Shown: positions 10,475 to 38,081, numbered from the stretch's first letter. The stretch is 64,000 bases of DNA from Nitrospirales bacterium (GCA_965223295.1 CBDCWC010000003.1:256001-320000); one strand, 5' to 3'. Numbers and translations: made by a program. Notes: generated by a model not told the origin, from the letters alone.

Positions 10475-10475
10475 A

Positions 10476-10730: not shown

Positions 10731-10913
10731 CGCAGAAGAGTTCACTTACCGATGATTAGGGTCCATTACTCCATTAGGTCTTCAAGACCAATATGGTTCC
10801 GATAAATGTTGTCACAAAGGACCTTACGCACAATAAATTGAAAAGTGAGAGTGTTCCTATCCACGTAATCTGAAGATGCAAAGGGAACCCCGATCCTTCA
10901 AAATCCTTCAACA

Positions 10914-12047: not shown

Positions 12048-12087
12048 GCTTCCCGTAATCTTGGACTTCCCTCGTTTCTGTGGACAC

Positions 12088-12678: not shown

Positions 12679-12717
12679 TGACGTGCCCCCAGTGATTGTT
12701 CCAGTGTGCATGCAGCT

Positions 12718-13560: not shown

Positions 13561-13829
13561 CCCTCAGCTGCTTCCTTCAGAATCAATTTATCCAGGGTGA
13601 GATCTGCCACGGCTCGCTTCAAGCGGGCATTCTCGCGCTCCAAGTCTTTGAGTCGTTTCGCCTGATCAAGTTTCAGTCCACCATATTCCTGCCGCCACCG
13701 ATAGTAGGTGGGATCGGTGATATTCCACTTCCGACAAATGTCTTTGACGGTCTGCCCTTGCCCCAACAGGACCTCCGCTTCCCGCAGTTTGTGAATGATT
13801 TGTTCAACCGAGTACTTCACACGTGCCAT
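13551..13829 (-). CDS. IS3 transposase OrfA
   Basis: [19 protein letters not shown]...EAAEGNF; RBS GGAGG; G GGA AAC slippery heptamer at the end. Confidence 0.9.
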
Positions 13830-14194
13830 GATACCCTCCTTTTTTATATGCCCTAGCCTGTAACATAGGCCTCGGAGCCGTTTAAAGGGGGCACGCCAGT
13901 ATCTTGTGACGCTGCATGATCTTGGCAATCCGGTTCTTGCCCACGCACTCACCCACCTCGCGTAGATCGCAAAGAATGCGGGGGGACCCATACGTGCGGC
14001 CACTCGCTTCATACGACTCCCGAATGAGTCCCAGCAAACGATCATCGTCTTGAGACCGTTGTGAGGGAGGGCGCTCCAACCATGCATCATAGCCACTGCG
14101 CGAGACCCCAAATAGGCGACACATCGGCTGGATCGCGTACCGGTTGTGATGTTGCAAGATGAACGCGTACCTCACGCCGGGTTTTTCGCGAAGT

Positions 14195-22233: not shown

Positions 22234-25200
22234 TCAAGGCACAGGATTATTCCTAAAGTAATCAACAGAAGCCGTAAAAGCTGGGGACTGAGTTGGATGG
22301 TTCCCCACATGTAGTCCTACTTCCGTTACAGCTAAATTATATATAAAGGAAGTTGCGGCAACCCAACTTTGCCCGTCGTCTGAATAGTCTAACGTCCACA
22401 GATCACCATTTCGATTCACCCTCAAGTAAAGTGGTGCGGTCAATGCCACGGACGTACTAGTTTTTACTGAAGCACTACTTCCACTCGCAATCGTAGCGGC
22501 AAAAATCTTCACATTCGTTCCATCATGATGAACCTCATATCGAAGCAACCTTTCATCAGTCTCTTGCACCACCAGCCCTTGAATTTCATAGCGAGTTGTC
22601 ACAGGCGAGTCAAACTTCGCCTCGATTTCAAAATCCGTGTTGCTGGCCCCTTGCAGAAGCCGGGGAGCATACATTTGTCCGGGCCAGAGATTGTGGGAAC
22701 TTCCTCCAGGAACTGCGACTTCCAGATGGGTACCTGTGAGCGCAAACGATGAATCATCAGACAATGGAGCACCTTCTAAGGGGTCAAAAAACCGCCAAAA
22801 GGAATTCAATGTCGTCGACGTAAACTCGTCCGAAAGAATAGTTGGTGTGTCCACAGCAATCATCACTTCATCAAAGGTACTTAACGCCGTATCGTCGGCT
22901 GTTAACCGCAGCACATACACCCCTGCCTGCGTAAAGCTCGCCGTCGTATCCACGGCCGTCGCATCCCCAAACGTCACCACGCCCGGCCCGCTCGTCATAC
23001 TCCACACCGTGGTCAAGGTCGGAGGCGTCGGGAGCCCATCATCTGCCACCGTCCCATCCAACGTCGCCACGTTCGGCAACGTCACCGCCTGGTCCGCCCC
23101 CGCAGCCACCGTCGGCGCTTGGTTCGTCGCGGCCACCGTCACTGTCAGCTCATCAAAGGTACTTAACGCCGTATCGTCGGCTGTTAACCGCAGCACATAC
23201 ACCCCTGCCTGCGTAAAGCTCGCCGTCGTATCCACGGCCGTCGCATCCCCAAACGTCACCACGCCCGGCCCGCTCGTCATACTCCACACCGTGGTCAAGG
23301 TCGGAGGCGTCGGGAGCCCATCATCTGCCACCGTCCCATCCAACGTCGCCACGTTCGGCAACGTCACCGCCTGGTCCGCCCCCGCAGCCACCGTCGGCGC
23401 TTGGTTCGTCGCGGCCACCGTCACTGTCAGCTCATCAAAGGTACTTAACGCCGTATCGTCGGCTGTTAACCGCAGCACATACACCCCTGCCTGCGTAAAG
23501 CTCGCCGTCGTATCCACGGCCGTCGCATCCCCAAACGTCACCACGCCCGGCCCGCTCGTCATACTCCACACCGTGGTCAAGGTCGGAGGCGTCGGGAGCC
23601 CATCATCTGCCACCGTCCCATCCAACGTCGCCACGTTCGGCAACGTCACCGCCTGGTCCGCCCCCGCAGCCACCGTCGGCGCTTGGTTCGTCGCGGCCAC
23701 CGTCACTGTCAGCTCATCAAAGGTACTTAACGCCGTATCGTCGGCTGTTAACCGCAGCACATACACCCCTGCCTGCGTAAAGCTCGCCGTCGTATCCACG
23801 GCCGTCGCATCCCCAAACGTCACCACGCCCGGCCCGCTCGTCATACTCCACACCGTGGTCAAGGTCGGAGGCGTCGGGAGCCCATCATCTGCCACCGTCC
23901 CATCCAACGTCGCCACGTTCGGCAACGTCACCGCCTGGTCCGCCCCCGCAGCCACCGTCGGCGCTTGGTTCGTGCTAGAGGCAGTATTTCTGAAATAATC
24001 GACCGAAGCCGTAAAAGCTGGGGACTGCGAAGGGTCAGCATGATGGTTCCCAGAAAAAATACCTACTCGGTTCACAACCATTGTGTGACTAAAGGAAGTG
24101 GCTGTTGTCCAACTCTGCCCATCATCTGAATAGTCGAGCGTCCACAGATCTCCAGACCGATTTACCCGTAGATAGTACGGTGCAGTCAACGCCACAGAAG
24201 CATTAGTTTTAATAGATGCATTCCCTCCATTGGTGATCGTAGTGGCAAAAATTCGGGCAGTTGATCCATTATGGTAGACATCGTAACGAATAAGCGTCTG
24301 ATTGGTTTCTTGTACCACTAACCCTTGAATTTGAAACCGTTCATTTACACTTGAGTCAAATTTTGCTTCGATTTCAAAATTCATATTGCTGGCATTTTGC
24401 AAAAGCCGAGGAGCAAAAAGATTAGGCGGGTATAGATCATGCGAAGATCCTCCCGGAACTGCAATCTCTAAGTGATCGCCTGTGAGGTTGAACGACGAAT
24501 CATCTGCAGACGACCCTCCAGCCAAGGGATCATAGAAACTCCAAAACGAATTCAGCGTAGGAGATGAGAATTCATCAGATTGAATTGCCGAACCGACGAT
24601 GATGTTCATTGTTGCTTCGTTAGACGTATCACCCTCCGTGTCAGCTATCGTATACGTAAAACTGTCAGATCCGATAAATCCAGTATTCGGGGTATAAGTA
24701 ATTTCTCCAGTTGTTGGATTTATGATCGTCGCCCCATTCTTTGTTCCACGAATCACTGTCACGGTAGCAGGATCTAAAGTCTGTCCATTAGCATCATCAT
24801 TGCTTAATACGTTCAACACTACTGGAGTATCACTGACTGTGGCGCCTGAATCATCGAAGGCTGCAGGAGTATCCCCGATAGCAATGAAATTTGTGGCTCC
24901 AAAGGTTACATTAGCCCTATAGGCAACGAAAAGAAGAGAGCCTATAGGTTGAGGAGGGTTATTCAATGCCTGAATAAGAGAACCAGAACTTTCTGGTTGC
25001 CCATCTTCCCACACTTTTAATGTATACAACACTCCCCCTGTGACAGCCTGTGTACGTGATCGGAAGTTATAGGTTACACCTGGAACTAAGGTGAACCCGC
25101 TATCATCGACCGCTAGACGAATCTCGCTAGTTCCTATCCAATTCGAAATTTCAAGCCGCTCTGGGCCGACGGCAGGACGCACACGATACCATGCCAACGC

Positions 25201-27432
25201 TCCCATCGGAGCACCAGTAAGTGGTTGGTTTGTAACTGAAGATTCGGTGGAGTGCCCTCTCCATCCATGCGCTAACCCAACCGCCGCGCTATTGGTGTGG
25301 GTAAAGTTTGTGATCGTGATCTGTGTCTCAACTTCATAGTTTTCCCAACTCGACATATCACCAATAGCAAGAAGACGATCGTAGCCAGGTTCGATAATGC
25401 GCACCGAATCTGCCTGGGCTGAATCTATACGCCATTTTCCATCCACGACTTGTGCTAAATTGAGTATCTCACTCGTGGTCGTTGCCTGTGTCCAATCGAT
25501 TGAATAGGGTAATGGCCACGTCACTCCAGGACTATAATTGACAGAAACATTCTTGGTGGTCACTTCCGAGTCCTGATCTATAGCCGTAAGTTTTACTGTG
25601 TTGTTACCCACTACAAAATCATCGGCATCAATGTCCGCGTTAAAATCCCCAGTTTCTTGAAGTCGAAAACCATCACTCCCAATAGAAAGGGGAACGGAGG
25701 GTCCACCATTTAGAGAATAGGTTAGTGCCAGCGAGGAGGTGGGACCATTTGGATCCGAAACATTACCCACAATATTTATCCATTCCTGAGCCCGTCCAAC
25801 GTGACCAAAATTCTGATTCGTAGAATGCCAAACATCTATAATAGGAGCTGTGCTACTCGTTGCTGTGACCATAACCGTCACAGTGGCCACATTTGACGTA
25901 TCTCCGTCTGTATCATCCACCGTATACGTAAAAACATCCATCCCGACAAAGCCCAGGTTAGGTGTATAAGAAACGGCTCCAGTCGTTTGATTAACAACTG
26001 TCGATCCATTCGGCGGATCACTTGCCACTACTGTGGTTACATCAATCGTCTGACCGTTAGCTTGATCATTAGCGAGCACCACAAAATTTCCCACTGGCGT
26101 GTCTTGTGAAGTACTTATTCCATCATCGACCGCAATAGGAGCCGCCATATTACTTGAAACCGTTGCAGTCACTGTCGCCGCATTCGAAGTATCCCCGTCG
26201 GTATCGTCCACCGTATATGTAAAGACATCTGTTCCAACAAAGCCTACATCAGGAGTATAGGTTATGGTGCCCGTAGAGACATTCACGACTGCCGTACCAT
26301 TGACTGGATCGCTTGCCGCCACCGTCGTCACATTAATGGTCTGCCCATTAAGTTGATCATTATTTAACACCGCCACCTCAACCCCTAGTGTGTCTTGCTG
26401 GGTGTTGACCGTATCATCTACGGCGATGGGAGCGGCCGAACTATTAGTTACTGTGACCGTAACCGTTGCAGCATTCGATGTGTCTCCCTCAGTATCATCT
26501 ACAATGTAAGTAAAAGAATCGACTCCTACAAAACCCACATCAGGGGTGTAAGTAAGATTTCCCGTAGTGGCATTTACGTCAACCGTTCCATTAGGCGGAT
26601 CATTTGCCACCACGGTCGTCACATCAATGGTCTGCCCATTAGCATTATCATTAGCTAGAACATCTATCTCCTCCGGAGTATCCTGTTGAGTAGCGACCGA
26701 GTCATCAACGGCAATGGGAGAGACCAAGCCCGTATTCCGAAAATAATCGACTGAAGCCGTGAAGGCTGGGGATTGCGTGGGATGATTGCCTGTATGTATC
26801 CCAACCTCAGTAACGATAAGATTATGTGTGAAGGAAGTTGCCGTCACCCAGCTTTGCCCATCGCCTGAGTAATCAAGAGTCCAGACACTGCCACTTCGAT
26901 TTACCCGAAGATAGTACGGCGCAGGCAAGGATATGGGAGCGTTGGTTTTTATAGAGGCACTGCTGCCATTTGTGATCGTCGCGGCAAAGATTTTGACGTT
27001 TGCCCCATCGTGGTGAATCTCATACCGAAGCAAGGTTTCATCGGTTTCTTGTACGACCACTCCCTGAATTTCGTATCTGGTTGTCACTGGAGAATCAAAT
27101 TTGGCTTCGATCTCTAAATCAGTATCACTCGCCGCTTGGAGGACCCGTGGAGCCCACATCTGCCCGGGCCAGAGATTATGCGAACTTCCCCCTGGCACCG
27201 CGATTTCCAGATGAGTACCTGAGAGTGCAAACGACGAATCATCAGACGACGGAGCATTAGCTAGAGGATCGTAAAACCGCCAAAAGGAGTTTAGCGTTGG
27301 CGATGTAAATTCATCGGAGAGTATAATATTGCCAGCTGCTCCGCTGAATGACAGCTGTACAATAATAGAAACGAAACAAAGTAACAGCAGACCTGACCAT
27401 AAGAAAAAACTGTGTCCTGCATGTTTAGACAT
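22234..27432 (-). CDS. Giant secreted multidomain protein: 3 ConA/DUF1349-like lectin domains, 4 Ig-like (Big_9-type) repeats, 4 identical PKD-like repeats
   Basis: Signal-like N-terminus; three SDEF...FTASVDYFRN domains; AVDD...FTY.VDD..GDTSN repeats; NQAPTVAAGADQ...LRLTADD repeats. Confidence 0.88.
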   Translation of the reverse strand: MSKHAGHSFFLWSGLLLLCFVSIIVQLSFSGAAGNIILSDEFTSPTLNSFWRFYDPLANAPSSDDSSFALSGTHLEIAVPGGSSHNLWPGQMWAPRVLQAASDTDLEIEAKFDSPVTTRYEIQGVVVQETDETLLRYEIHHDGANVKIFAATITNGSSASIKTNAPISLPAPYYLRVNRSGSVWTLDYSGDGQSWVTATSFTHNLIVTEVGIHTGNHPTQSPAFTASVDYFRNTGLVSPIAVDDSVATQQDTPEEIDVLANDNANGQTIDVTTVVANDPPNGTVDVNATTGNLTYTPDVGFVGVDSFTYIVDDTEGDTSNAATVTVTVTNSSAAPIAVDDTVNTQQDTLGVEVAVLNNDQLNGQTINVTTVAASDPVNGTAVVNVSTGTITYTPDVGFVGTDVFTYTVDDTDGDTSNAATVTATVSSNMAAPIAVDDGISTSQDTPVGNFVVLANDQANGQTIDVTTVVASDPPNGSTVVNQTTGAVSYTPNLGFVGMDVFTYTVDDTDGDTSNVATVTVMVTATSSTAPIIDVWHSTNQNFGHVGRAQEWINIVGNVSDPNGPTSSLALTYSLNGGPSVPLSIGSDGFRLQETGDFNADIDADDFVVGNNTVKLTAIDQDSEVTTKNVSVNYSPGVTWPLPYSIDWTQATTTSEILNLAQVVDGKWRIDSAQADSVRIIEPGYDRLLAIGDMSSWENYEVETQITITNFTHTNSAAVGLAHGWRGHSTESSVTNQPLTGAPMGALAWYRVRPAVGPERLEISNWIGTSEIRLAVDDSGFTLVPGVTYNFRSRTQAVTGGVLYTLKVWEDGQPESSGSLIQALNNPPQPIGSLLFVAYRANVTFGATNFIAIGDTPAAFDDSGATVSDTPVVLNVLSNDDANGQTLDPATVTVIRGTKNGATIINPTTGEITYTPNTGFIGSDSFTYTIADTEGDTSNEATMNIIVGSAIQSDEFSSPTLNSFWSFYDPLAGGSSADDSSFNLTGDHLEIAVPGGSSHDLYPPNLFAPRLLQNASNMNFEIEAKFDSSVNERFQIQGLVVQETNQTLIRYDVYHNGSTARIFATTITNGGNASIKTNASVALTAPYYLRVNRSGDLWTLDYSDDGQSWTTATSFSHTMVVNRVGIFSGNHHADPSQSPAFTASVDYFRNTASSTNQAPTVAAGADQAVTLPNVATLDGTVADDGLPTPPTLTTVWSMTSGPGVVTFGDATAVDTTASFTQAGVYVLRLTADDTALSTFDELTVTVAATNQAPTVAAGADQAVTLPNVATLDGTVADDGLPTPPTLTTVWSMTSGPGVVTFGDATAVDTTASFTQAGVYVLRLTADDTALSTFDELTVTVAATNQAPTVAAGADQAVTLPNVATLDGTVADDGLPTPPTLTTVWSMTSGPGVVTFGDATAVDTTASFTQAGVYVLRLTADDTALSTFDELTVTVAATNQAPTVAAGADQAVTLPNVATLDGTVADDGLPTPPTLTTVWSMTSGPGVVTFGDATAVDTTASFTQAGVYVLRLTADDTALSTFDEVMIAVDTPTILSDEFTSTTLNSFWRFFDPLEGAPLSDDSSFALTGTHLEVAVPGGSSHNLWPGQMYAPRLLQGASNTDFEIEAKFDSPVTTRYEIQGLVVQETDERLLRYEVHHDGTNVKIFAATIASGSSASVKTSTSVALTAPLYLRVNRNGDLWTLDYSDDGQSWVAATSFIYNLAVTEVGLHVGNHPTQSPAFTASVDYFRNNPVP
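22868..23973. repeat. Tandem repeat, 282-bp unit x ~3.9, apparently identical copies
   Basis: TCATCAAAGGTACTTAACGCC recurs at 22868, 23150, 23432 and 23714 (period 282 bp = 94 aa). Confidence 0.97.
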
Positions 27433-27838: not shown

Positions 27839-28300
27839 GAACTTCAAATAATCTATTCAAAATATTGTCATTTTTTTTTACACCTTCTCACACTCTCACA
27901 CATTCATTTTTTCTGGTTTTTTTATATATTTAATGTTTCGTTACCCCCTATGAACCGTAGGTATACTTTACAATTCGATGAATGTTTTAATAATTTTATG
28001 TTCTTCGAAATCAGAAGACCAGAAGACGAAACGCAGCACACCCATAAAATATGAAACTTGTTCTACATTTAGATACAACTTATATCCTTTTAGATACATT
28101 TTTAGTTGTTCTAATGTGCATATCTCACGACTGTTAATAATCTTTTTTGAAACGATGACGAAAATTGTTGATATGAGTCATTCTTTGATACCCTTGACAG
28201 TCATGGTCTTAAAATTGCTTACTCAAACTCAAAGATAACAGATTCTATAGATCCCAGCGGGTTGCTTTCGTAATTTCTAGGTTAGGTGCGAACTTTGAAT

Positions 28301-29452
28301 ATGTTTTTGCCATTTCACGTCCCTGATATTGGGGACGAAGAAATCTGTTCGGTTGTTGAAACCCTCCGTTCTGGTTGGTTAACCACAGGATCAAAGGTCA
28401 AGCAGTTTGAGAGAGAATTTGCTGAACAGCTAGGAGTGAGCAATGCCGTGGCAGTCAATTCTTGCACAGCTGCTTTACATCTTGCCTTAGAAGCTATAGG
28501 CCTCAGCGAAGGAGACGAAGTCATCATTCCAACAATGACGTTCGCTGCAACGGCAGAGGTCGTACACTATTTTAAAGCCAAACCCGTGTTGGTGGATTGT
28601 CGAAAAGACACGCTTAATCTGAATGTTGAGCTAATTGAACGCGCAATAACCCCTAAGACCAAAGCGATTATCCCAGTTCATTTTGCTGGGCAACCCTGTG
28701 CCATGGATCAAATCCTGGCCATAGCTCATTCTCACCACCTTAAAGTCATTGAAGATGCTGCCCATGCCCTTCCCGCCAGGTATCAAGGAAAAAGGGTTGG
28801 AACCTTAGGAGATATCACCTGCTTTTCTTTTTATGCCACAAAAACGATGACCACAGGAGAAGGTGGCATGGCTACCACTGAGAATCCGGAATGGGCTCAA
28901 CGGATGCGCATGTTGAGTCTTCACGGCATTTCACAGGATGCATGGAAACGCTACACCCCAGGAGGTTCTTGGTATTACGAAATCCGCCACCCTGGGTACA
29001 AATATAATCTAACCGATATTGCCGCAGCCTTGGGTATTCCACAACTCCGGAAATGCAACGAATTTAAGAGCACTCGGCAGCATATCGCCTCCCTCTACAA
29101 TGAGGGATTCAGTCGGGTACCTGAAATCACAACGCCGCATGTGGACAAAAACATCGACCATGCCTGGCACCTGTATGTCATTCAGTTGAATCTCGAACAA
29201 TTGAGAATCGGGCGAAATGAATTTATGGATCAATTAAAGAAACATGGAATAGGGACCAGCGTTCACTTCATTCCCTTACATCTTCATCCTTATTATCGAG
29301 ATACCTTTGGCTATTTGCCAGAAAACTTTCCCGAAGCCAGCGCAGTGTTCGAACGTATTCTTTCTCTCCCGATCTACCCTAAAATGAGTGACGAAGATGT
29401 TCGCCATGTCATTCAAACAGTTTCTACCCTCATTAAAGAGTATCGCCGATGA
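28301..29452 (+). CDS. DegT/DnrJ/EryC1/StrS sugar aminotransferase
   Basis: SGWLTTG, NSCTAALHLAL, IEDAAHA, FSFYATKTMTTGEGGM (PLP lysine). Alternative GTG start at 28286. Confidence 0.95.
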   Translation: MFLPFHVPDIGDEEICSVVETLRSGWLTTGSKVKQFEREFAEQLGVSNAVAVNSCTAALHLALEAIGLSEGDEVIIPTMTFAATAEVVHYFKAKPVLVDCRKDTLNLNVELIERAITPKTKAIIPVHFAGQPCAMDQILAIAHSHHLKVIEDAAHALPARYQGKRVGTLGDITCFSFYATKTMTTGEGGMATTENPEWAQRMRMLSLHGISQDAWKRYTPGGSWYYEIRHPGYKYNLTDIAAALGIPQLRKCNEFKSTRQHIASLYNEGFSRVPEITTPHVDKNIDHAWHLYVIQLNLEQLRIGRNEFMDQLKKHGIGTSVHFIPLHLHPYYRDTFGYLPENFPEASAVFERILSLPIYPKMSDEDVRHVIQTVSTLIKEYRR

Positions 29453-32400
29453 TGAAACGTGCTTTTGATATACTTGCAGCAGGTTTAGGACTTATCCTAG
29501 GTGCACCTATATTTCTTCTCCTCGCTTTCCTCGTCAAAATTGATTCACCGGGGCCTGTGTTCTTCAAACAAATTCGGGTTGGACAAGGTTTTCGGCATTT
29601 TTCTATTTTAAAATTTCGCACCATGCACGCGAATGTCTCAAAGGAAGGTGGAGAACTCACAATCGGACAAGATCCACGGATCACAGGGCTCGGAAAAGTC
29701 TTACGTCAGCTTAAGCTTGACGAACTTCCACAACTTTTGAATGTCATAAGGGGCGAGATGAGTCTCGTGGGGCCGAGACCCGAAGTTCCCCAATACGTTG
29801 ACCAGTTTCGTGAAGACTATGCGGAAATTTTAGAGGTTCGCCCAGGCTTAGTGGACCTTGCTTCCCTTAAGTATATTGATGAACAGATGATACTCGGAAA
29901 TGCCATAAATCCTGAAGAGGAATATCTCAAGACGATTCTCCCGGACAAAATCCGATTGGCTAAGTTATACGTTGCGCATTCCTCCTTTCTCATCGACGTA
30001 ACAATTATTCTGCAGACCTTACTTAAAATCGTTGGGATTCAAACCAACCTCTTAGTTGACAGTACGCAAAAAGACCGGGAAGAAATCTTCGTTCTACCGA
30101 ACTCTTCCATTCGTACTCATATTTTAAAGCATCGACATAAACTTGTCGTGACATTGGATTTAGGGCTTATCATATTAGCTAACTATATGGCTTTCTGGTT
30201 GAGATTTGATGGGCATATTCCATCAGAGATAAGCCACATGTTTTTCCAACTCTTCCCTATTCTCCTTCTGGTTAGAGGAGTTTCTTTTTCCTTATTTCGA
30301 TTGAACGAAGGACTTTGGCGGTATATCGGACTTTGGGATGTCAAAAACATCATTTGGGGAGTCCTTTCCGGAACCATTGTATATTTTCTTATTGTTCATT
30401 TCGGACTCGGATTTACTGAGTACCCTCGATCAGTGTTTGTCATTGACAGTATGTTATTGATCAGCCTTCTTGTTGGCATTCGACTCGTGGTCCGTCTATT
30501 TCGGATAGACAGAACCTCTAAACGCTCAAAACGTGTCTTGATTATCGGAGCAGGAAATACCGGAGAAAAAATTGTTCGAGAAATGCAAGAACATCCATCA
30601 TGTGCCTATTCACCAATTGGATTTCTTGACGATGATCCGTTGAAATTAGGACAGAGAATTCATGGAGTGAAAGTCCTTAGCACGTTAAAAGACCTTCCCA
30701 GAATTCTGGAGCTAGAAAATCCTGCAGAAATCTTAGTAGCGTTATCCCAATCAAATACCAATACTATCCGAAGCATCGTGAGTACCTTGGAGCCTTATAA
30801 GATTCCAATCAAAACCCTGCCAAAATTAGAAGACATTCTCAATGGAAAAGTCACAATTGGCCAAATCAGAGACTTAAAAATCGAAGACTTGCTCCAACGT
30901 CCCCCCGTGGGTATTGCGCGACAGATCCTTCCCCATTTTATCAAGGGCCGGCGAATCATGGTTACTGGTGCGGGAGGCTCTATTGGTTCGGAACTGTGCC
31001 GTCAGATTGTGTCATATAGCCCCGAAGCACTCATTCTGTATGAACGACATGAGAATAGTCTCTATCAGATTGCAAGTGAGCTGACCGACAGTGGACATTC
31101 TACCATCACACATGAGGTTTTAGGCGACATCACTGATTCTCTTCATCTCAAGGAAACGATGCAGAAGCATAAACCTCATGTCGTTTTCCATGCAGCAGCA
31201 CATAAGCACGTCCCGTTAATGGAATCGAATCCCTGCGAAGCCTTTAAAAATAATATCCTTGGAACCCACCGCGTCGCAAAAGCCGCCCAACAAGCTGGAG
31301 TAGAACGATTTGTCTTGATTTCGACAGACAAGGCTGTGAATCCCACCAGCGTGATGGGAGCCACAAAGCGAGGAGCCGAATTGGTCGTGAGAAGCTTGGC
31401 TCAAACAAGCCAAACGTGCTTTTTGACTGTCCGATTTGGAAATGTACTAGGGAGCAACGGAAGCGTGGTGCCAAGATTTCAGAAACAAATTCGTGCAGGC
31501 GGACCGGTAACCGTGACACACCCCGACGTTCGTCGGTACTTCATGTCAATTCCCGAAGCCGTTGAATTGGTACTACAAACCTCAACACTCAGTGAGCAAG
31601 GAGCTCTTTACGTATTAGATATGGGTCAACAAATAAAGCTGTTAGATTTGGCACGCCACCTCATTCGTCTCTCTGGATTTCTCCCTGAAAAGGAAATTCC
31701 TATCCAGTTTGTGGGTCTTCGACAAGGAGAAAAGCTAGAAGAAGAGCTAGTAGGAACTGGCGAAAAAACAGACCGTTCCCCAATAGAGAAAATTTTCCAA
31801 ATAAAATCTGAAACTTCTCAAGACTTCACATTACTCAATCAGGTACTCGAAACCTTTAAAAATGTAAGCTTTTTGAACTCTCCATCGTTCGTGATACATC
31901 AATTGCAACAACTTGTTCCAACATTTTTACACTCTGAGAATGACAGGGTAGTTGAAAACTGGGAACCCTGCATAGAAAATGTTCACAACGATTCGAAAAC
32001 AATTCTCGTTGTCGACGATGATGAATCTGGACGAAGAGCTATACGGGCTCTCCTGGAAAATGAAGGATATACATGTCTTGAGGCAGAACACGGAGGCAAG
32101 GCATTGGATCTTCTGGGCCAGGCTCAGGTGGACCTGGTCATCACCGACAATAGAATGCCTGTCTTAACTGGATTAGACTTTCTTGAACAGCTGTCAAAAT
32201 CAGCACCCTCTAAGCTGCTTCCAGTGGTTGTTTTTAGTGGCAATTTAGGCCCACAGGATAAGGAGAGAGCGTTCAAAGCTGGTGCCTGCGCGGTTCTCGA
32301 CAAACCTCATGGTGTGGTAAAATTAGTGCCAAAGATCAATCAAATCTTTACTCAACAGAGTACAAGTAGCAGGGAAAGAGTCATGCCTCACGTCAACTAG
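29449..32400 (+). CDS. Fusion: phosphoglycosyl transferase + UDP-HexNAc 4,6-dehydratase (CapD/PglF type) + C-terminal receiver domain
   Basis: KRAFD...KFRTM...LDELPQLLNV.RGEMSLVGPRPE; 4 TMs; GAGGSIGSE, HAAAHKHVP, ISTDKAVNP, RFGNVLGS; ILVVDDD...VITDNRMP...FSG...DKP. Confidence 0.93.
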   Translation: MMKRAFDILAAGLGLILGAPIFLLLAFLVKIDSPGPVFFKQIRVGQGFRHFSILKFRTMHANVSKEGGELTIGQDPRITGLGKVLRQLKLDELPQLLNVIRGEMSLVGPRPEVPQYVDQFREDYAEILEVRPGLVDLASLKYIDEQMILGNAINPEEEYLKTILPDKIRLAKLYVAHSSFLIDVTIILQTLLKIVGIQTNLLVDSTQKDREEIFVLPNSSIRTHILKHRHKLVVTLDLGLIILANYMAFWLRFDGHIPSEISHMFFQLFPILLLVRGVSFSLFRLNEGLWRYIGLWDVKNIIWGVLSGTIVYFLIVHFGLGFTEYPRSVFVIDSMLLISLLVGIRLVVRLFRIDRTSKRSKRVLIIGAGNTGEKIVREMQEHPSCAYSPIGFLDDDPLKLGQRIHGVKVLSTLKDLPRILELENPAEILVALSQSNTNTIRSIVSTLEPYKIPIKTLPKLEDILNGKVTIGQIRDLKIEDLLQRPPVGIARQILPHFIKGRRIMVTGAGGSIGSELCRQIVSYSPEALILYERHENSLYQIASELTDSGHSTITHEVLGDITDSLHLKETMQKHKPHVVFHAAAHKHVPLMESNPCEAFKNNILGTHRVAKAAQQAGVERFVLISTDKAVNPTSVMGATKRGAELVVRSLAQTSQTCFLTVRFGNVLGSNGSVVPRFQKQIRAGGPVTVTHPDVRRYFMSIPEAVELVLQTSTLSEQGALYVLDMGQQIKLLDLARHLIRLSGFLPEKEIPIQFVGLRQGEKLEEELVGTGEKTDRSPIEKIFQIKSETSQDFTLLNQVLETFKNVSFLNSPSFVIHQLQQLVPTFLHSENDRVVENWEPCIENVHNDSKTILVVDDDESGRRAIRALLENEGYTCLEAEHGGKALDLLGQAQVDLVITDNRMPVLTGLDFLEQLSKSAPSKLLPVVVFSGNLGPQDKERAFKAGACAVLDKPHGVVKLVPKINQIFTQQSTSSRERVMPHVN

Positions 32401-32502
32401 TTCTCTACGTTCCCTTGGCCTTGCAATCTGATATCTTCGCTCTTTACTATAAGTCAGATATCTCACCACTTGTACCTTGAGGGGAAGGTTTATCAAAACA
32501 CT

Positions 32503-33159
32503 ATGAACAGAATACGTTTTTTAAATTTAGTGACGCTATGTTTTATGATGACTGCCTGCCAATCGGTCGGAAGCGGTTTAAAGACAGTTGATGTCTCTGA
32601 ATTAGATTCCAATGGCTTTCCTATCCACACGTCAAATCAAAATCCTGACAACGAGAGATATATCATCAAGCCGGGTGATCAGTTAAGCGTGAAATTCTTT
32701 TTCAACCCCGAATTAAATGAAGAAGATCTGATAGTTCGGCCTGATGGATTTATTTCGCTTCAATTGGCACATGAAATCCAGACAGCGGGTCTTACTCCAT
32801 CGGAACTGACCAAGATCTTAGCAAAAAAGTACGCTGGACAGCTCAAAAATCCTGAAATTGCGGTGATCGTCCGATCAATCAAAGAGGCCAACAAAATTTA
32901 TGTCGATGGTCAAGTTGGGGCACCGGGAGAATTTGAAATGATTGGAACCCTCACCGTGTTACAGGCCATTTCCCTCGCCAGAGGGATGACTGAAGACACC
33001 GCTGACAAGAATAACGTGGTAGTCATACGCCGTGATCAGGGCGGCAAGCCATTCGCCATAAAGGTCGATCTAAATGCAGCACTCAGTGGAAGAGATCTCA
33101 CTCAAAACATTCAGTTACTGCCTCATGACACTGTCTATGTACCAAGATCGTTTTGGTGA
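32503..33159 (+). CDS. wza: Short polysaccharide export lipoprotein (Wza/OPX)
   Basis: Lipobox MTAC; YIIKPGDQL...VRPDGFISL (Poly_export); one SLBB domain; ends LLPHDTVYVPRSFW with no C-terminal membrane helix. Confidence 0.88.
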   Translation: MNRIRFLNLVTLCFMMTACQSVGSGLKTVDVSELDSNGFPIHTSNQNPDNERYIIKPGDQLSVKFFFNPELNEEDLIVRPDGFISLQLAHEIQTAGLTPSELTKILAKKYAGQLKNPEIAVIVRSIKEANKIYVDGQVGAPGEFEMIGTLTVLQAISLARGMTEDTADKNNVVVIRRDQGGKPFAIKVDLNAALSGRDLTQNIQLLPHDTVYVPRSFW

Positions 33160-33163
33160 GGCC

Positions 33164-34357
33164 ATGATGAGAATAGGAGCTTTTCAGATGACATCGTCCC
33201 GCCCAAGACATTTCTCAATGATAGTGGGAACTTCGCACCGAACGTACCGGTGGCTCGTATTCATATCTTTTATGATTTTACCCCAGATGGACATCGCAGA
33301 ACTTCAAGCGATTGCTCAGACTTTACCTCAATCAGAAATTGAAGGCTCTTTGAGCCAGGAAAGTTTGGATGAAGCAGCGAATCAAACCTACTCCATCATG
33401 CAACAACAGCTTCAGGCGTATCAGAAACGGTTAGAAGCCTCTGAACGTCGGCTACAGGACTTCAAACAAATACATGGCATCATTTCGCTTGAAACTCAAA
33501 TCAATCTTCTTCTTCAGCAACGTAATGCGCTAGATGACTCGTTTAAAATAGAACAGAATCGCGCTCAGGGCCTTCGAGAAAAGTTGGCTTGGGTACAAGA
33601 TAGAATTAGCCAGGTGCCTAAAGAAATTCCCTTGTCGAGTGTTTTGAGCTCCGAACAAGGAATTATAGGCCAGGCCAAAAATAATTTACTTACACTTCAA
33701 CTGCAGGAACAAGAACTCCTAAATAAATATACTGAAAAAAACCCCCATGTCCAATCGCTTCGAAAAGAAATGGAATTAGTTTCTCAGTTTATCGAGGAAC
33801 AAGAGGCCAACTTGGCGGGAAGCGTGACGACAGGAAAGAACCCGTTGTATCAGGAAATGGAAATGCAGCTCTTTCATACTCAGGCTGATCTGGTTTCGGC
33901 CAAAGCTCAAAGTCAAGTCATTGCTCAACAAATTTCTGAAATTGATAAAAAACTTGAGGAGCTTCGAAGCTTAGAAGTTGAATTTGAGGAATTGAGCCGC
34001 CAGGTTAAAGCCGATGAAAGAAATTACTTGAATTATCTCACCAAAGTTGGAACGACCCCTCCGCAAGATTACCAGATTCAGGTTGGGGATCATCTTGACA
34101 TTAAATTCTTTTTCAACCCTGAACTAAATGAATCTGTTTTGGTGAGACCCGATGGCCGAATTGCCTTGCAATTAGTAGGTGAATTTCCTGTCGTTGGACA
34201 TACAGTTAAAGAATTACGAGAAATCCTGATGAAGAATTATTCAACCCAACTCAAGAACCCCGAAGTTGCGGTATTACTTCGGTCCTCGAATGTTCCAGGA
34301 GACAGTGTAGGAGCAATCGAGGCTGAACCCCGCTCAGAGAATCACAATGGACGATGA
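33164..34357 (+). CDS. Chimeric protein: Wzc/GumC-like coiled coil + C-terminal Wza Poly_export domain
   Basis: Central region parallels 34347..35831 (QLQAYQKRL/QLQSYEKKL; VTTGKNPLYQ/VTSGKNPIFQ). C-terminus parallels Wza (KFFFNPELNE...VRPDG...QLKNPE). Start uncertain. Confidence 0.85.
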   Translation: MMRIGAFQMTSSRPRHFSMIVGTSHRTYRWLVFISFMILPQMDIAELQAIAQTLPQSEIEGSLSQESLDEAANQTYSIMQQQLQAYQKRLEASERRLQDFKQIHGIISLETQINLLLQQRNALDDSFKIEQNRAQGLREKLAWVQDRISQVPKEIPLSSVLSSEQGIIGQAKNNLLTLQLQEQELLNKYTEKNPHVQSLRKEMELVSQFIEEQEANLAGSVTTGKNPLYQEMEMQLFHTQADLVSAKAQSQVIAQQISEIDKKLEELRSLEVEFEELSRQVKADERNYLNYLTKVGTTPPQDYQIQVGDHLDIKFFFNPELNESVLVRPDGRIALQLVGEFPVVGHTVKELREILMKNYSTQLKNPEVAVLLRSSNVPGDSVGAIEAEPRSENHNGR

Positions 34358-35831
34358 AACCATAATTGAAAATGCCGTGGCACCCTATCCTTTAGGAAGT
34401 TTGCGAGACATTCTCACAACCATTTTTAAGCACAGAGGTAAAATCCTCCTAGGTTTCCTTCTAGCATTCCTACCTGTCATCGGATGGGTCTTTTTATCCA
34501 CGCCCCACTTTATGGCTGATGCCAGTATCGTACTAAAATTTGGAAGAGAACATATCGTACGACCAGAAGTAGGCACTGCAAAAGAATATGTAGACTTTGA
34601 CCAAGGGGCGGCGATTCAAACAGAGCTCAATATAATTTTTAGTAGAGATCTAGCTAGAAAAATCGTACAGAGCATCGGAATTCATAACCTCTACCCTCAG
34701 TTAGCTGACTCTCCACTCGAGGAAAGTCAACTCATCGCTTCCGCTACATCCAAATTTTTAAAAAATTTGACGGCTGATTCTGTGAACTATTCTAATGTGA
34801 TTGAACTGACATTCTCACATCATGATCCACAAATAGCAGCAACAGCCCTCAACACTCTTATTGATTTGTTGAAGGGGAAACACCTTCAAGTGTTTAGTGA
34901 TCCCAAGGCCTCATTTTTAACGAATCAACTACAGAGCTATGAAAAAAAGCTCAAAGATTCAGAGGAAGGACTGCAAAATTTTAAACGCAAACACAACCTT
35001 TCTTCTCCTCTAAAGCAACATCAACAACGCCTTCTTGATCAGAGGGCAGAATTGGATACGGAATATAAAAAAATCAGGAATGAAATACAAGGCCTAAAAA
35101 GCAAAAGTATAGCACTTGAAGCACAACTGAAAACAGTTCCCCAGACTATTCCACTTACCACTACGGAAGGAGAAGGGGTTTTAAAACAAGCCCGTGAAGA
35201 TTTGTTTGAGCTCAAGCGCCAGGAACAGAGTCTGTTGGGGAAGTACACGGAAGACAGTCTTCCCATTCAAAACCTTCAAAAAGAAATTGAACTTCTAGAG
35301 ATATTTATCAGTCAACAACCCAATGACGAACGTTCAAACACCGTCACAAGTGGGAAAAACCCCATCTTTCAAAACCTGGAGATTGCAAAACTAGAAACTT
35401 CCTCTGCTCTTAAAACGAAACAGGCTAGCATGGAAGTCATTGCTGATCAAATCAAGGAGCTGGACAATAAAATTTTGAGTCTTGATCAATTAAATGAAGA
35501 ACTAACAGTGCTGGAAAGGCAAAAAACGACAGATGAACAAAATGTTCAATTGTATCTGGGAAAAGTGGAAGAAGCCAAAGTTTCAGAAGAGATGGATCGC
35601 CTCCACATGTCCAATATTAGCGTCATCCAAGCAGCAGAAGTCCCTCTACAGCCGACTGGTCGCTCAGCCACACTTAAACTGTTGCTAGGAACTCTCCTTA
35701 GCACAGTCGTCGGCTTTGGCATTGCATTCCTTTCTGAATTCTTGGGTGGCACATACACAAGGCCAGCTCAAGCCACGCAAGATTTAGGGCTTCCAGTGCT
35801 GGCTTCTTTCTATCAAAAAAGTGCGAGTTAG
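34347..35831 (+). CDS. Polysaccharide co-polymerase (Wzc/GumC-type, no kinase domain)
   Basis: SLRDILTTIFKH + TM1, long coiled coil, NISVIQAAEVPLQP + TM2, LGLPVLA tail. Confidence 0.9.
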   Translation: MDDETIIENAVAPYPLGSLRDILTTIFKHRGKILLGFLLAFLPVIGWVFLSTPHFMADASIVLKFGREHIVRPEVGTAKEYVDFDQGAAIQTELNIIFSRDLARKIVQSIGIHNLYPQLADSPLEESQLIASATSKFLKNLTADSVNYSNVIELTFSHHDPQIAATALNTLIDLLKGKHLQVFSDPKASFLTNQLQSYEKKLKDSEEGLQNFKRKHNLSSPLKQHQQRLLDQRAELDTEYKKIRNEIQGLKSKSIALEAQLKTVPQTIPLTTTEGEGVLKQAREDLFELKRQEQSLLGKYTEDSLPIQNLQKEIELLEIFISQQPNDERSNTVTSGKNPIFQNLEIAKLETSSALKTKQASMEVIADQIKELDNKILSLDQLNEELTVLERQKTTDEQNVQLYLGKVEEAKVSEEMDRLHMSNISVIQAAEVPLQPTGRSATLKLLLGTLLSTVVGFGIAFLSEFLGGTYTRPAQATQDLGLPVLASFYQKSAS

Positions 35832-35834
35832 ACA

Positions 35835-37313
35835 ATGTACCTATCTTTTTATGGGCTTCAAAAAGAACCATTTCATACCACACCCGATCCCCACTTTCTT
35901 TTTTTAAGTCCCAGCCATAAAGAAGCTCTTGGCACAATTATTTATGGTATAGAAAAAAAGAAAGGATTTGTGGCGATACTTGGGGAAGTCGGTGTCGGCA
36001 AAACAACTATTCTGCGAGCTTATCTTGAAGGTAAGCGTCAGAACAAACACAAAACGGTATATATATTCAACCCAGTACTGACGTATCAGGAACTTCTGAA
36101 GTCCATACTACGCGGGCTGGATCTAGTTCCAACTCATAGTGATCTCAGTGAAATGATCAACCAACTCCATGAAGCACTCATCATGGAATATCGCTCCAAC
36201 AGTACTGTGGTCGTCGTCATCGACGAAGCTCAAAACATCCCTATAGATACGCTGGAAAACCTTCGAATGCTCTCTAACCTTGAAACCTCAACCGATAAAC
36301 TTATTCAATTTATCTTAATTGGCCAGCCCGAACTTGAAGCACTACTCAACCAACCAAGGTTGCGTCAGCTTCAACAACGAATAGCCATTCAAGCAACAAT
36401 TACCACTCTGACGCTCAAAGAAAGTCAAGATTACATCAAACATCGCATTGCAAGAGCTTCAACTGGTGAACCACGGGTATTTTCCAAGGGGGCCATACAG
36501 CTTATTTGTAAGCATGCACAAGGAGTTCCACGACGCATTAATATGATTTGCGATAATTCACTTAGCACTGGATTTGGGTATCAGGAAAAACCTGTGACAA
36601 CTAAAGTCGTGAAAGAGATCATTGGTGATGGAAGCACACCCGGGTCCTTTCGTCCGTTTAAATGGGTAGCTGCCATCGCGGCTGGCGCCATTTTGTTCTC
36701 AGGATTTTTTATTTGGAAAAACTATCCTCTTAAGGAGAATTTTGACATCTTATCTATTTTCTCAGATAGATCATCCGCCTCAAACACTCAGGTGATGGCA
36801 CAAAAGATATCCGCAGAGACTACTGGGTCAGTCATCGAGCAGGTAAGAGATATGAACGAAAACGAAACCCTCTTAGAGGCTTCCCCACCTCAAGCTTTCA
36901 ATGATATTTCCGAAAAATCTTTATTGCAGAGTTCCTCCTTAAACAAAACGCAATCTCCAGGGAAAGAGATTCAAAAAACAATCGCTAAGGACGACAAAAA
37001 AGTTCCTGTGGCACTAGAAGAAACAGTTCCTAGTACTATCTTTCCTAAACAACAACCACCTGATAAAACTCAGACCGGACCTAACACCATGATCCTTAGC
37101 CAATCAAAGTCTTTTCCGAGGCAAGATTCGACCTCTCCTAGAGTGCGGTCAGTGAATAGCGGAGAAAGCCTCAGCCAAATCACCAAGGAAGTGTATGGCT
37201 CATTTGCTCCGGAGCATCTTTCATGGATCACACAACATAATCCAGACATAGTTGACCCAGATCTTATCCATGTTGGACAGCAATTGGTACTCCCGGATTT
37301 TTCCAAGGAGTAA
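35835..37313 (+). CDS. ExeA/GspA-type AAA ATPase with TM helix and C-terminal LysM domain
   Basis: MYLSFYGL..EPF..TPDP, GEVGVGKTT, VIDEAQN, LIGQPEL, GVPRRIN; VNSGESLSQI...NPDIVDPDLIHVGQQLVLP. Confidence 0.9.
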   Translation: MYLSFYGLQKEPFHTTPDPHFLFLSPSHKEALGTIIYGIEKKKGFVAILGEVGVGKTTILRAYLEGKRQNKHKTVYIFNPVLTYQELLKSILRGLDLVPTHSDLSEMINQLHEALIMEYRSNSTVVVVIDEAQNIPIDTLENLRMLSNLETSTDKLIQFILIGQPELEALLNQPRLRQLQQRIAIQATITTLTLKESQDYIKHRIARASTGEPRVFSKGAIQLICKHAQGVPRRINMICDNSLSTGFGYQEKPVTTKVVKEIIGDGSTPGSFRPFKWVAAIAAGAILFSGFFIWKNYPLKENFDILSIFSDRSSASNTQVMAQKISAETTGSVIEQVRDMNENETLLEASPPQAFNDISEKSLLQSSSLNKTQSPGKEIQKTIAKDDKKVPVALEETVPSTIFPKQQPPDKTQTGPNTMILSQSKSFPRQDSTSPRVRSVNSGESLSQITKEVYGSFAPEHLSWITQHNPDIVDPDLIHVGQQLVLPDFSKE

Positions 37314-37322
37314 TGTGATTCA

Positions 37323-38081
37323 ATGAGTAAAATTTACGACGCTCTGCAAATTGCATACGGCGAACGACTCATTACTGAGAACGGATCAAAGGCTGCACCA
37401 GCTGTCAGCTCGTCTGCTCTTCTAAAAATAGACAGCCCATTTTCTATTTCTCGGCAGTACAAGGAGGCAGAACTTCTAGGGCTTGCCCAACATATTGCAG
37501 CCCGACTAGGGGATCCAAAGAAAAATGTCATTCAATTCATTGGCACTCAAAAAGGGGAAGGAACTTCTACGCTGGTCCGAGAGTTCGCTATGGTTTTAGC
37601 TCAACATAGCACCAAACCAATATTGCTGGTTGAAGCTGATTTAATCCAACCTTCACAGTATCAGGCCTTTGGCATTGATCCCAAACCGCCATTAGAGAAT
37701 CTTTTTGAAGAGGGAAAAGCTCTTGAAGGAGTGGTATCTCAAATTGAGGAATCAAATCTCTATGTTGCAACTCTCTCATCGAAAGTGCAGTCCGCTCTTA
37801 CGGGACAAACCAAGAGTCATGGGAAGACAATGTGGGATAGGGTTCGGGACGAATTTGGACTAATCTTAATTGACTCGTCTCCAGCTCGTGTTACCCCAGA
37901 TAGCCTGGCACTTTGCAATACCGTCGACGGAATTGTTTTCGTGTTGCAAGCTGAAAAAACTCGCTCGACTGTTGCCAATAGTGTCAAGGAACAGATTTTT
38001 ATGCGTGGCGGGAATATATTGGGGCTCGTTCTGACCAAGCTCAAGTTTCACATCCCCGAAGGTATTTACAAGTTACTTTAG
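37323..38081 (+). CDS. CpsD/CapB-like BY-kinase homologue, probably a pseudokinase
   Basis: MSKIYDAL; Walker A GEGTST (Lys>Thr), A' LLVEAD, B ILIDSSP; no Tyr-rich tail. Confidence 0.85.
   Translation: MSKIYDALQIAYGERLITENGSKAAPAVSSSALLKIDSPFSISRQYKEAELLGLAQHIAARLGDPKKNVIQFIGTQKGEGTSTLVREFAMVLAQHSTKPILLVEADLIQPSQYQAFGIDPKPPLENLFEEGKALEGVVSQIEESNLYVATLSSKVQSALTGQTKSHGKTMWDRVRDEFGLILIDSSPARVTPDSLALCNTVDGIVFVLQAEKTRSTVANSVKEQIFMRGGNILGLVLTKLKFHIPEGIYKLL

What the first reader, a model, noticed from the sequence alone, without database searches (positions are those of the whole stretch)
29449..32400. Initiating transferase-dehydratase fused to an intact phospho-receiver domain
Seen: one uninterrupted 983-aa ORF with PGT (~29449-30040), TM/CapD-type dehydratase (~30130-31930) and REC (~31995-32350). 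The REC keeps the acidic pocket (DDD), phospho-acceptor Asp (ITDNRMP), Ser and Lys-Pro. Established: these enzymes are usually separate and lack REC domains. Inference: two-component phosphorylation directly gates the first committed steps of EPS synthesis, with substrate channelling via the overlapping DegT. I do not know of a described example.
Basis: partly seen in the sequence, partly recalled or inferred. Interest (0 to 1): 0.85.

Follow-up and report, generated by a model that had tools for sequence, protein, structure and literature searches.

The report
Sugar-starter fusion enzyme with receiver tail
One real membrane protein of a nitrite-oxidiser relative joins the first and last enzymes that make and load the starter sugar of a slime polysaccharide to an intact phospho-receiver domain, a design already present in databases and noted in print but never studied at the bench.

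Summary
ORF 29449-32400 (+) is one 983-aa frame: PglC-like small monotopic phosphoglycosyl transferase (PGT), four TM helices plus a CoA_binding_3 domain, PglF-type UDP-HexNAc 4,6-dehydratase, a roughly 18-residue disordered linker, and a receiver (REC) with all five active-site residues. It is not an artefact: 19 sequence clusters and 6 of 151 genomes of the order share it, and metagenome contigs span it without indels.

The novelty claim is overstated. PGT-PglF fusions are common. The REC tail marks one Nitrospirales subclade and was lost repeatedly. REC sits at the same C-terminal position on PglF proteins without a PGT, on DegT-PglF fusions, and in two other PGT-PglF-REC lineages; a PilZ domain occupies that position in one protein. 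Schwabe et al. 2025 showed a stand-alone receiver activating a PGT and cite a 2021 catalogue of receiver-PGT fusions. This scan found the architecture earlier on other DNA (e1-4080053).

My reading, by inference: phosphorylation by a non-adjacent kinase gates supply and loading of the priming amino sugar, probably through the TM/DUF-dehydratase module. No kinase, phosphorylation or activity change is shown.

The parts
28286..29452 (+). DegT/PglE-like PLP aminotransferase (388 aa); its stop overlaps the next start by ATGA
   Evidence: Pfam DegT_DnrJ_EryC1, E 6e-137. The NCBIfam best hits ArnB and PseC are below their cut-offs. The overlap is seen.
29449..32400 (+). Whole 983-aa fusion gene (PGT, TM/DUF, PglF-type dehydratase, REC)
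29455..30033 (+). Small monotopic PGT domain (aa 3-195): hydrophobic N-terminal helix 4-34 with invariant P20, Asp-Glu dyad D91-E92, PRP 109-111
   Evidence: Pfam Bac_transf. Aligned to PglC 8e37 at E 9e-26, with the dyad and PRP in register. Hydropathy. Invariant columns.
30133..30513 (+). Four predicted TM helices (aa 229-355)
   Evidence: Hydropathy. AF2 helices at 229-252, 259-282, 295-319 and 327-355.
30523..30858 (+). Cytoplasmic Rossmann-like CoA_binding_3 domain (aa ~359-470). Together with the TM bundle it is homologous to the N-terminal TMH-bundle plus DUF of large monoPGTs.
   Evidence: Pfam PF13727. PDB 3nkl, E 9e-12. The piece aa 215-475 matches profile positions 2-238 of TIGR03025 (6e-25), WcaJ (3e-23) and WbaP (3e-14).
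30868..31938 (+). PglF-type NAD-dependent UDP-HexNAc 4,6-dehydratase domain (aa 474-830): TGAGGSIG 506-513, catalytic T626-D627-K628
   Evidence: PDB 5bju (C. jejuni PglF/WlaL), E 3e-80 over aa 474-830, with STDKA aligned. Pfam Polysacc_synt_2.
31939..31992 (+). Variable, probably disordered tether (aa 831-848)
   Evidence: AF2 pLDDT below 50 at 830-847. No conserved columns there.
31993..32346 (+). Receiver domain (aa 849-966): D857/D858, phospho-acceptor D900, S930, K952
   Evidence: Pfam Response_reg, 81.5 bits. PDB receivers at E about 1e-15. (beta-alpha)5 fold in the AF2 model. Conservation.
32470..38081 (+). Downstream export/assembly genes: two Poly_export genes, a chain-length determinant, a pepcterm_ATPase-like gene and a BY-kinase-like ATPase
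   Evidence: All NCBIfam XrtA-system hits here are below their cut-offs.

Best explanation
The gene encodes an inner-membrane enzyme that carries out the first and last steps of making and loading the priming sugar of an exopolysaccharide.

The PglF-type domain converts UDP-GlcNAc (or a close UDP-HexNAc) to the 4-keto-6-deoxy sugar. The translationally coupled DegT enzyme aminates C4. The N-terminal PglC-like domain then transfers the sugar-1-phosphate to undecaprenyl phosphate. All catalytic parts and the REC lie in the cytoplasm, because a re-entrant helix plus four TM helices gives an even topology.

The C-terminal REC is tethered by a disordered linker of about 18 residues. I infer that a kinase encoded elsewhere phosphorylates it at D900, and that this switches the enzyme on; I lean to activation, by analogy with EpsW. 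I infer that the switch acts on the TM-bundle/DUF plus dehydratase module to which REC is always attached, for example by promoting dimerisation. The cell would then draw on UDP-GlcNAc and the shared lipid carrier only on a signal.

Shown here: the architecture, the conserved catalytic and phospho-acceptor residues, and the distribution. Inferred: phosphorylation, its direction of effect, the target domain and the sugar's identity.
For: Anatomy and catalytic motifs.

REC under selection: DDD, D900 and K952 are invariant across 20 proteins at 37-73% identity to the window's protein, and S930 is at least 90% conserved. All 19 of 19 Nitrospirales tails keep them.

REC always follows the PglF C-terminus whatever sits in front:
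- 19 of the 120 best hits are PGT-PglF-REC.
- 5 of the 150 best representatives reach the REC: one is PGT-PglF-REC and four are PglF-REC without a PGT.
- 29 of 120 hits to an Omnitrophota PglF-REC carry PF02719 plus PF00072. Among them are DegT-PglF-REC (2), PGT-PglF-REC (1) and an Elusimicrobiota member; another of the 120 hits has a PilZ domain at the same position.
- One NC10 genome holds PglF-REC.

Other support:
- The TM plus CoA_binding_3 module is homologous to the TMH-bundle/DUF of large monoPGTs. In the EpsZ-EpsW model the receiver contacts that DUF.
- The genome has 4 monoPGT genes competing for the lipid carrier.
- Precedents exist for phospho-control of these steps: EpsW~P activates EpsZ (PMC12802240; abstract and discussion read), and CapAB phosphorylation up-regulates CapM and CapE (PMC6441080; abstract and section headings read).
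Against: No histidine kinase lies in the window. None of the listed HATPase_c matches lies within about 50 kb of the gene in 5 REC-bearing genomes, though only about half of the rows were listed. The partner is therefore unknown.

The REC was lost or truncated repeatedly in close relatives, so it is dispensable for enzyme function.

The AF2 full-length model has pTM 0.47 and gives no confident domain packing.

No columns of the enzyme body co-vary convincingly with REC presence: 4 weak columns.

The position three residues before K952, aromatic in CheY (recalled), is Val here, so the output mechanism may be atypical.

The sugar's identity is uncertain. The loop that carries the diNAcBac 'GLLLP' fingerprint reads GELTIG here (against PMC10186338), and the Pfam scans of ORFs of 150 aa or more found no acetyltransferase family.
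Confidence: 0.5

Rival explanations
1. The REC works like EpsW on EpsZ. The phosphorylated receiver docks on the PGT catalytic domain (with the DUF) and directly stimulates sugar-1-phosphate transfer. The dehydratase is a passenger.
For: The only experimentally supported case of a receiver controlling such a pathway acts on the PGT (PMC12802240). This protein holds every module of a large monoPGT: catalytic domain, TMH bundle and DUF.
Against: REC is found on PglF proteins that have no PGT domain in several lineages, and on DegT-PglF fusions. It is always placed after the dehydratase, about 650 residues from the PGT domain. Small monoPGTs are reported to be functional monomers.
Confidence: 0.25
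2. The REC does not regulate catalysis. It is a phosphate sink or branch point of a two-component pathway, or a docking or localisation module that places the enzyme in the export machinery, or a phosphorylation-independent structural domain.
For: No cognate kinase lies nearby. The REC is repeatedly lost with the enzyme retained. Outside the family its nearest relatives are receivers of hybrid histidine kinases: 18 of the 28 hits.
Against: Full conservation of the acidic pocket, D900, S930 and K952 over deep divergence argues against a pseudo-receiver. Recurrent attachment of signal domains (REC, PilZ) to the same enzyme end is more simply explained by control of that enzyme.
Confidence: 0.15
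3. The fusion is an assembly or frameshift artefact that joins separate genes.
For: One relative (G142) has an in-frame TAA that splits the gene into 484 and 479 aa. G116 appears to be split as well.
Against: The same uninterrupted architecture is found in 19 clusters and in 5 other genomes, one of them with that stop. A 73% identical copy lies on a 4.48-Mb contig. Metagenome contigs span both junctions with no indel.
Confidence: 0.01

Closest known systems
Campylobacter pgl pathway enzymes PglC (small monoPGT), PglF (membrane UDP-GlcNAc 4,6-dehydratase) and PglE (aminotransferase)
   Same: These are the best solved relatives of the three catalytic parts: PglF 5bju at E 3e-80 with the T-D-K motif aligned, and PglC 8e37 at E 9e-26 with the DE dyad and PRP aligned. 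The gene set is the same: dehydratase, DegT-type aminotransferase and PGT.
   Different: Here PglC and PglF are one polypeptide with a REC tail. The diNAcBac loop fingerprint is not kept (GELTIG). No PglD-like acetyltransferase turned up in the Pfam scans of the window's ORFs of 150 aa or more, so the sugar may be a different 4-amino-4,6-dideoxy-HexNAc.
EpsW-EpsZ of Myxococcus xanthus (Schwabe et al. 2025, PMC12802240; abstract, discussion and passages read)
   Same: A phosphorylatable receiver controls the initiating step of a Wzx/Wzy-type EPS pathway after translation. The TMH-bundle/DUF module that EpsW is modelled to contact has a homologue here.
   Different: EpsW is a separate protein fed by the Dif chemosensory kinase, and EpsZ is a large monoPGT with no dehydratase. 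Here the receiver is fused in cis, follows a dehydratase, and has no known kinase.
Bifunctional/fusion monoPGTs catalogued by O'Toole, Imperiali & Allen 2021 (PNAS 118:e2018289118). Not held; known here only through its citation in PMC12802240 and PMC10186338.
   Same: [quoted passage not shown]
   Different: I could not check whether the exact PF02397+PF02719+PF00072 combination, or its Nitrospirales members, is listed there or in its supplements.
PglF-REC proteins of Omnitrophota, Elusimicrobiota and NC10 (database entries only; JGI auto-name 'FlaA1/EpsC-like NDP-sugar epimerase/CheY-like chemotaxis protein')
   Same: TM/DUF, then PglF dehydratase, then C-terminal REC in the same order and position.
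   Different: Most lack the PGT domain. Their RECs are only about 25-30% identical to this one, so common origin of the REC is unresolved.
Staphylococcus aureus CapAB control of CapM and CapE (Rausch et al. 2019, PMC6441080; abstract and section headings read)
   Same: Reversible phosphorylation up-regulates both a small monoPGT and a Polysacc_synt_2-family 4,6-dehydratase at the entry of a capsule pathway.
   Different: That case uses tyrosine phosphorylation by a BY-kinase on separate proteins, not aspartyl phosphorylation of a fused receiver.

Membership tests
Small monotopic PGT (Pfam Bac_transf, PglC-like) | Profile match over the curated cut-off | tested here: met
   PF02397, 186.5 bits against 27.
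Small monotopic PGT (Pfam Bac_transf, PglC-like) | Asp-Glu catalytic dyad and PRP nucleotide-binding motif | tested here: met
   D91-E92 and P109-R110-P111 align with those of PglC 8e37. E92, P109 and P111 are invariant or nearly so.
Small monotopic PGT (Pfam Bac_transf, PglC-like) | N-terminal re-entrant membrane helix with a helix-breaking Pro | tested here: inconclusive
   A hydrophobic helix at 4-34 and an invariant P20 aligned to the Ser-Pro of PglC. Re-entrance itself cannot be shown here.
UDP-diNAcBac-specific PGT subgroup (Anderson et al. 2023) | GLLLP-type loop about 20 residues before the dyad (plus aromatic box and long C-terminus) | tested here: not met
   The loop reads GELTIGQD where PglC has GEL-LPDD (motif from PMC10186338). 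The aromatic box was not evaluated.
PglF/CapD/WbpM-type membrane 4,6-dehydratase | Polysacc_synt_2 profile, NAD-binding glycine motif and Thr-Asp-Lys catalytic motif (role of the triad recalled from the PglF literature) | tested here: met
   PF02719 at 384.8 bits. 5bju at E 3e-80, with TGAGGSIG and STDKA aligned.
PglF/CapD/WbpM-type membrane 4,6-dehydratase | N-terminal four-TM bundle plus CoA_binding_3 domain | tested here: met
PglF/CapD/WbpM-type membrane 4,6-dehydratase | UDP-GlcNAc 4,6-dehydratase activity | not testable with these tools
   Needs an enzyme assay.
Two-component receiver domain (phosphorylatable) | Profile match, (beta-alpha)5 fold, acidic pair, phospho-acceptor Asp, Ser/Thr and Lys | tested here: met
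   PF00072 at 81.5 bits against 30.2. The AF2 secondary structure at 851-977 has five alternating strands and helices. D857/D858, D900, S930 and K952 are conserved.
Two-component receiver domain (phosphorylatable) | Phosphotransfer from a cognate kinase | not testable with these tools
   No kinase in the window. One PrsK-type kinase lies elsewhere in the genome.
EpsW-EpsZ-type receiver-activated PGT | Stand-alone single-domain receiver binding a large monoPGT | tested here: not met
   The receiver is fused in cis and the PGT is of the small type. The TMH/DUF module is homologous to that of large monoPGTs. It may work like this system but is not a member.
XrtA/PEP-CTERM EPS locus | System marker genes over NCBIfam cut-offs; exosortase and PEP-CTERM proteins | tested here: inconclusive
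   In the window only the PrsT-like TPR protein is over its cut-off (418 against 312). The export, chain-length, ATPase and Tyr-kinase hits are below theirs. An exosortase and a PrsK-type kinase (348 against 300 bits) lie on another contig. A simple motif scan found no PEP-CTERM tail in the window.

The most novel reading that the evidence does not exclude
Signal-receiving modules at the C-terminus of PglF-type dehydratases form a general control layer at the first nucleotide-sugar step of surface-glycan pathways, one that has not been described experimentally. REC is seen here and in Omnitrophota, Elusimicrobiota and NC10, and PilZ in another lineage. The layer would work through the TMH-bundle/DUF module shared with large monoPGTs, as the cis-fused equivalent of the EpsW-EpsZ dimerisation switch. 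The Nitrospirales triple fusion would be a natural 'Rosetta stone' showing that dehydratase, aminotransferase, PGT and receiver act as one regulated assembly.
Probability: 0.35. Interest if true: 0.6.

Novelty: new member of a known kind. Interest (0 to 1): 0.38.

Why it matters
Und-P and UDP-GlcNAc are shared with peptidoglycan synthesis, so where and how bacteria gate entry into polysaccharide pathways is an open practical question. A receiver acting in trans on the initiating transferase was first shown in 2025. A protein with the receiver fused in cis to both the dehydratase and the transferase is a compact system in which phosphorylation, dehydratase activity, transferase activity and oligomeric state can each be measured in one polypeptide. 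The distribution found here suggests that the dehydratase/TM-DUF module, and not only the transferase, may be the controlled node. For Nitrospirales it points to signal-dependent control of biofilm matrix production. As an architecture it is not new: it is in public databases, cited in print, and this scan has met it before.

Tried and rejected
- Complex prediction, with chains aa 1-470 and aa 474-835 and REC 845-975 as partner: 'no answer' (ipSAE 0.00; controls not run). This is no evidence either way.
- RNA evidence: no RNA holder listed by the look-up of sequencing runs, so expression is untested.
- Enzyme-body sites that track REC presence within the 52-row clade: only 4 weak columns, driven by one large subclade. 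No interface signal.
- Kinase by neighbourhood: none in the window. None of the 150 listed HATPase_c rows lies near the gene in 5 genomes (163 further rows were not listed).
- A separate REC gene downstream of the REC-less fusions: in 4 of 4 loci checked (L007-L010) the next gene is a Poly_export gene.
- A word-based search with the REC tail alone found only 10 family members and 18 hybrid kinases. It missed the PglF-REC proteins, which the full HMMER scan found.
- phmmer of the TM/DUF piece against PDB did not reach WbaP. The NCBIfam profiles did reach large monoPGTs.
- O'Toole 2021 could not be read. PMC11626204 holds no text on fusions or receivers.
- Searches for print descriptions of receiver-PGT fusions returned only the Schwabe paper, its preprint and unrelated papers. 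A search for Nitrospira + PEP-CTERM + response regulator returned only the 2006 PEP-CTERM paper.
- The artefact reading is rejected (see rival explanations).
Full report
**Observation.**
The window holds one uninterrupted ORF at 29449-32400 on the + strand, 983 aa. Pfam places four domains:
- Bac_transf at aa 3-195 (E 4e-55)
- CoA_binding_3 at 310-455
- Polysacc_synt_2 at 503-786 (E 3e-115)
- Response_reg at 852-963 (81.5 bits against a cut-off of 30.2)

The upstream DegT aminotransferase gene (28286-29452) overlaps the start codon by ATGA.

**Anatomy.**
- The N-terminal domain aligns with solved PglC (8e37, E 9e-26). The Asp-Glu dyad (D91-E92) and the PRP motif are in register.
- Hydropathy and the AF2 model give one long N-terminal hydrophobic helix (4-34) and four TM helices between 229 and 355. 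This puts all soluble domains on the cytoplasmic side.
- Residues 474-830 match C. jejuni PglF (5bju, E 3e-80), including TGAGGSIG and the STDKA motif.
- The match runs to the natural C-terminal 'LVPTF' of PglF-type proteins. After it come about 18 non-conserved residues with pLDDT below 50, and then a (beta-alpha)5 receiver.
- The full-length AF2 model has mean pLDDT 73.7 and pTM 0.47. Domains are credible; their packing is not.
- The TM plus CoA_binding_3 piece (aa 215-475) matches profile positions 2-238 of the large-monoPGT families TIGR03025, WcaJ and WbaP (E 6e-25 to 3e-14). The protein therefore holds all modules of a large monoPGT in permuted order, plus a dehydratase and a receiver.

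**Not an artefact.**
- Among the 120 best hits in the 90%-clustered protein collection, the listed rows carry PF02397 and PF02719, and 19 also carry PF00072. All named ones are Nitrospirales. The nearest is 73% identical, 974 aa, on a 4.48-Mb contig.
- In 151 genomes of the order, six have a match running through the REC: G000, G046, G031, G088, G112 and G142. All six are in one family. G142 has an in-frame TAA that splits the gene.
- At least 25 further genomes have the PGT-PglF fusion without REC. Others have adjacent separate PGT and PglF genes, for example G093 and G024. 222 weaker matches were not listed.
- A 4669-nt contig of run X1 spans 29300-32500 with 7 substitutions and no gap. Two X2 contigs bridge both junctions. 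No indel appears in the four runs laid.

**History of the REC tail.**
- All 19 REC-bearing clusters keep DDD, the TD(N) phospho-acceptor, Ser and Lys.
- On a FastTree of 116 rows built from columns 1-830, all 19 fall in one starred clade of 52 rows together with 32 REC-less forms. At least 6 changes of state are needed. Four rows shorter than 800 aa were dropped: P0066, P0071, P0092 and P0115.
- Three REC-less rows end in the first residues of a receiver: P0053/G110 '...ILLVNDESNVKDAVQNFLEAKG', P0049 and P0073. Truncation and loss are thus directly visible.
- One gain followed by several losses is the simplest history. The tree is unrooted, so this is an inference.
- In four REC-less loci (L007-L010) the next gene is a Poly_export gene, not a separate receiver.

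**Beyond Nitrospirales.**
- A full HMMER scan of 1.84 billion representatives listed 150 best hits, and five of them reach the REC. P0136 is another PGT-PglF-REC at 39% identity. P0141, P0173, P0176 (Omnitrophota) and P0194 are PglF-REC without a PGT.
- The same list holds polytopic-PGT (Glycos_transf_4)-PglF fusions and PglF-Bac_transf fusions in reverse order.
- With P0176 as query, 29 of 120 listed proteins carry PF02719 plus PF00072. They include an Elusimicrobiota member, two DegT-PglF-REC proteins and a third PGT-PglF-REC (P0306). One other protein, P0333, has a PilZ domain where the others have REC.
- The three PGT-PglF-REC lineages are 36-39% identical to each other overall.
- The foreign RECs are only about 25-30% identical to this one.
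- An NC10 genome holds PglF-REC followed by a Wzz gene.
- The constant is thus a signal domain on the C-terminus of the TM/DUF-PglF module. What is fused in front varies.

**Context.**
- The gene sits in a large EPS locus: glycosyltransferases, a sulfotransferase, a Wzy-like polymerase, an asparagine-synthase-type amidotransferase, two Poly_export genes, a chain-length determinant, an ATPase, a BY-kinase-like gene, a beta-barrel protein and a PrsT-like TPR protein.
- In the window only PrsT exceeds its NCBIfam cut-off.
- The genome has one exosortase and one PrsK-type kinase over cut-off on another contig, four monoPGT genes and about 64 HATPase_c matches.
- No kinase lies in the window or, among the rows listed, near the orthologues.

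**Mechanism.**
*Shown:* a protein with intact catalytic motifs for the first (dehydratase) and last (PGT) steps of priming-sugar supply, coupled in translation to the aminotransferase, and an intact, conserved receiver on a flexible tether.

*Inferred:* aspartyl phosphorylation by a distant kinase switches the enzyme. I favour action through the TM/DUF-dehydratase module, for two reasons:
- REC and PilZ always follow that module, whether or not a PGT is present.
- In the EpsZ-EpsW model the receiver contacts the homologous DUF and promotes dimerisation.

The rival reading is that the receiver acts on the PGT domain as EpsW does. It remains open, as does a non-catalytic role.

*The sugar:* it is probably a 4-amino-4,6-dideoxy-HexNAc. 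The diNAcBac loop fingerprint is not kept, and the Pfam scans of the window's larger ORFs found no acetyltransferase family.

**Comparison with what is known.**
- Schwabe et al. 2025 (abstract, discussion and passages read) showed that phosphorylated EpsW activates the PGT EpsZ. [quoted passage not shown]
- I could not read that survey. Its supplements may list this exact architecture.
- Rausch et al. 2019 (abstract and headings read) showed tyrosine-phosphorylation control of a PGT and a 4,6-dehydratase in S. aureus.
- JGI already auto-names such proteins 'NDP-sugar epimerase/CheY-like'.
- This scan reported the same triple fusion on another genome (e1-4080053) and the double fusion (e1-351953). 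My own calls agree with both.

**Verdict.**
This is a new member of a known, catalogued but experimentally untouched kind. Interest is moderate. Its value lies in being a compact test system, and in the hint that the dehydratase/TM-DUF module is the regulated node.

Noticed in passing
window 9486-15353: A cluster of mobile-element genes inside the EPS locus: IS3-type integrase fragments on the - strand and an IS256-family transposase at 14253-15353. Local GC is 0.50-0.53 against about 0.44 around it.
   Followed up: no
window 22234-27432 (-): A 1732-aa secreted-looking protein with Big_9, cadherin-like, PKD and ConA-like/DUF1349 domains lies just upstream of the operon and is divergent from it. 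Its 3' part has GC 0.56. It has no PEP-CTERM tail.
   Followed up: partly
window 32470-34357: Two overlapping ORFs (32470-33159 and 33074-34357) each carry a Poly_export domain. The second combines a chain-length-determinant-like region with a Poly_export domain. This may be a duplicated or rearranged exporter.
   Followed up: no
window 3465-4361, 7172-9091, 17694-18695 (-): A sulfotransferase, an asparagine-synthase-type amidotransferase and a protein with a D-glucuronyl C5-epimerase C-terminal domain sit in the same locus. They hint at a sulfated, uronic-acid-containing polymer.
   Followed up: no
P0333 (900 aa, metagenome protein): A PglF-type dehydratase with a C-terminal PilZ domain (aa 771-868) at the place where others carry REC. 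This suggests c-di-GMP input on the same enzyme.
   Followed up: partly
P0304 (1186 aa), P0307 (1135 aa): DegT aminotransferase, PglF dehydratase and REC fused in one polypeptide in the Omnitrophota-related lineage.
   Followed up: partly
P0132, P0188, P0236; P0171, P0207, P0239, P0250: PglF is also fused to polytopic (Glycos_transf_4) PGTs at its N-terminus and, in reverse order, to Bac_transf at its C-terminus.
   Followed up: no
L002 (G142:C32), G116:C1:4466571-4469064, L011 (G110): Broken or decaying copies in relatives. G142 has an in-frame TAA giving 484- and 479-aa halves. G116 is split near residues 480-493. G110 has a receiver truncated after about 25 residues.
   Followed up: partly
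L003, L004, L002, L006 (downstream of the REC-bearing orthologues): In several REC-bearing relatives the fusion gene is followed by a methyltransferase and a second small PGT gene, about 41-44% identical to the PGT domain. The window's locus has a Poly_export gene there instead.
   Followed up: no
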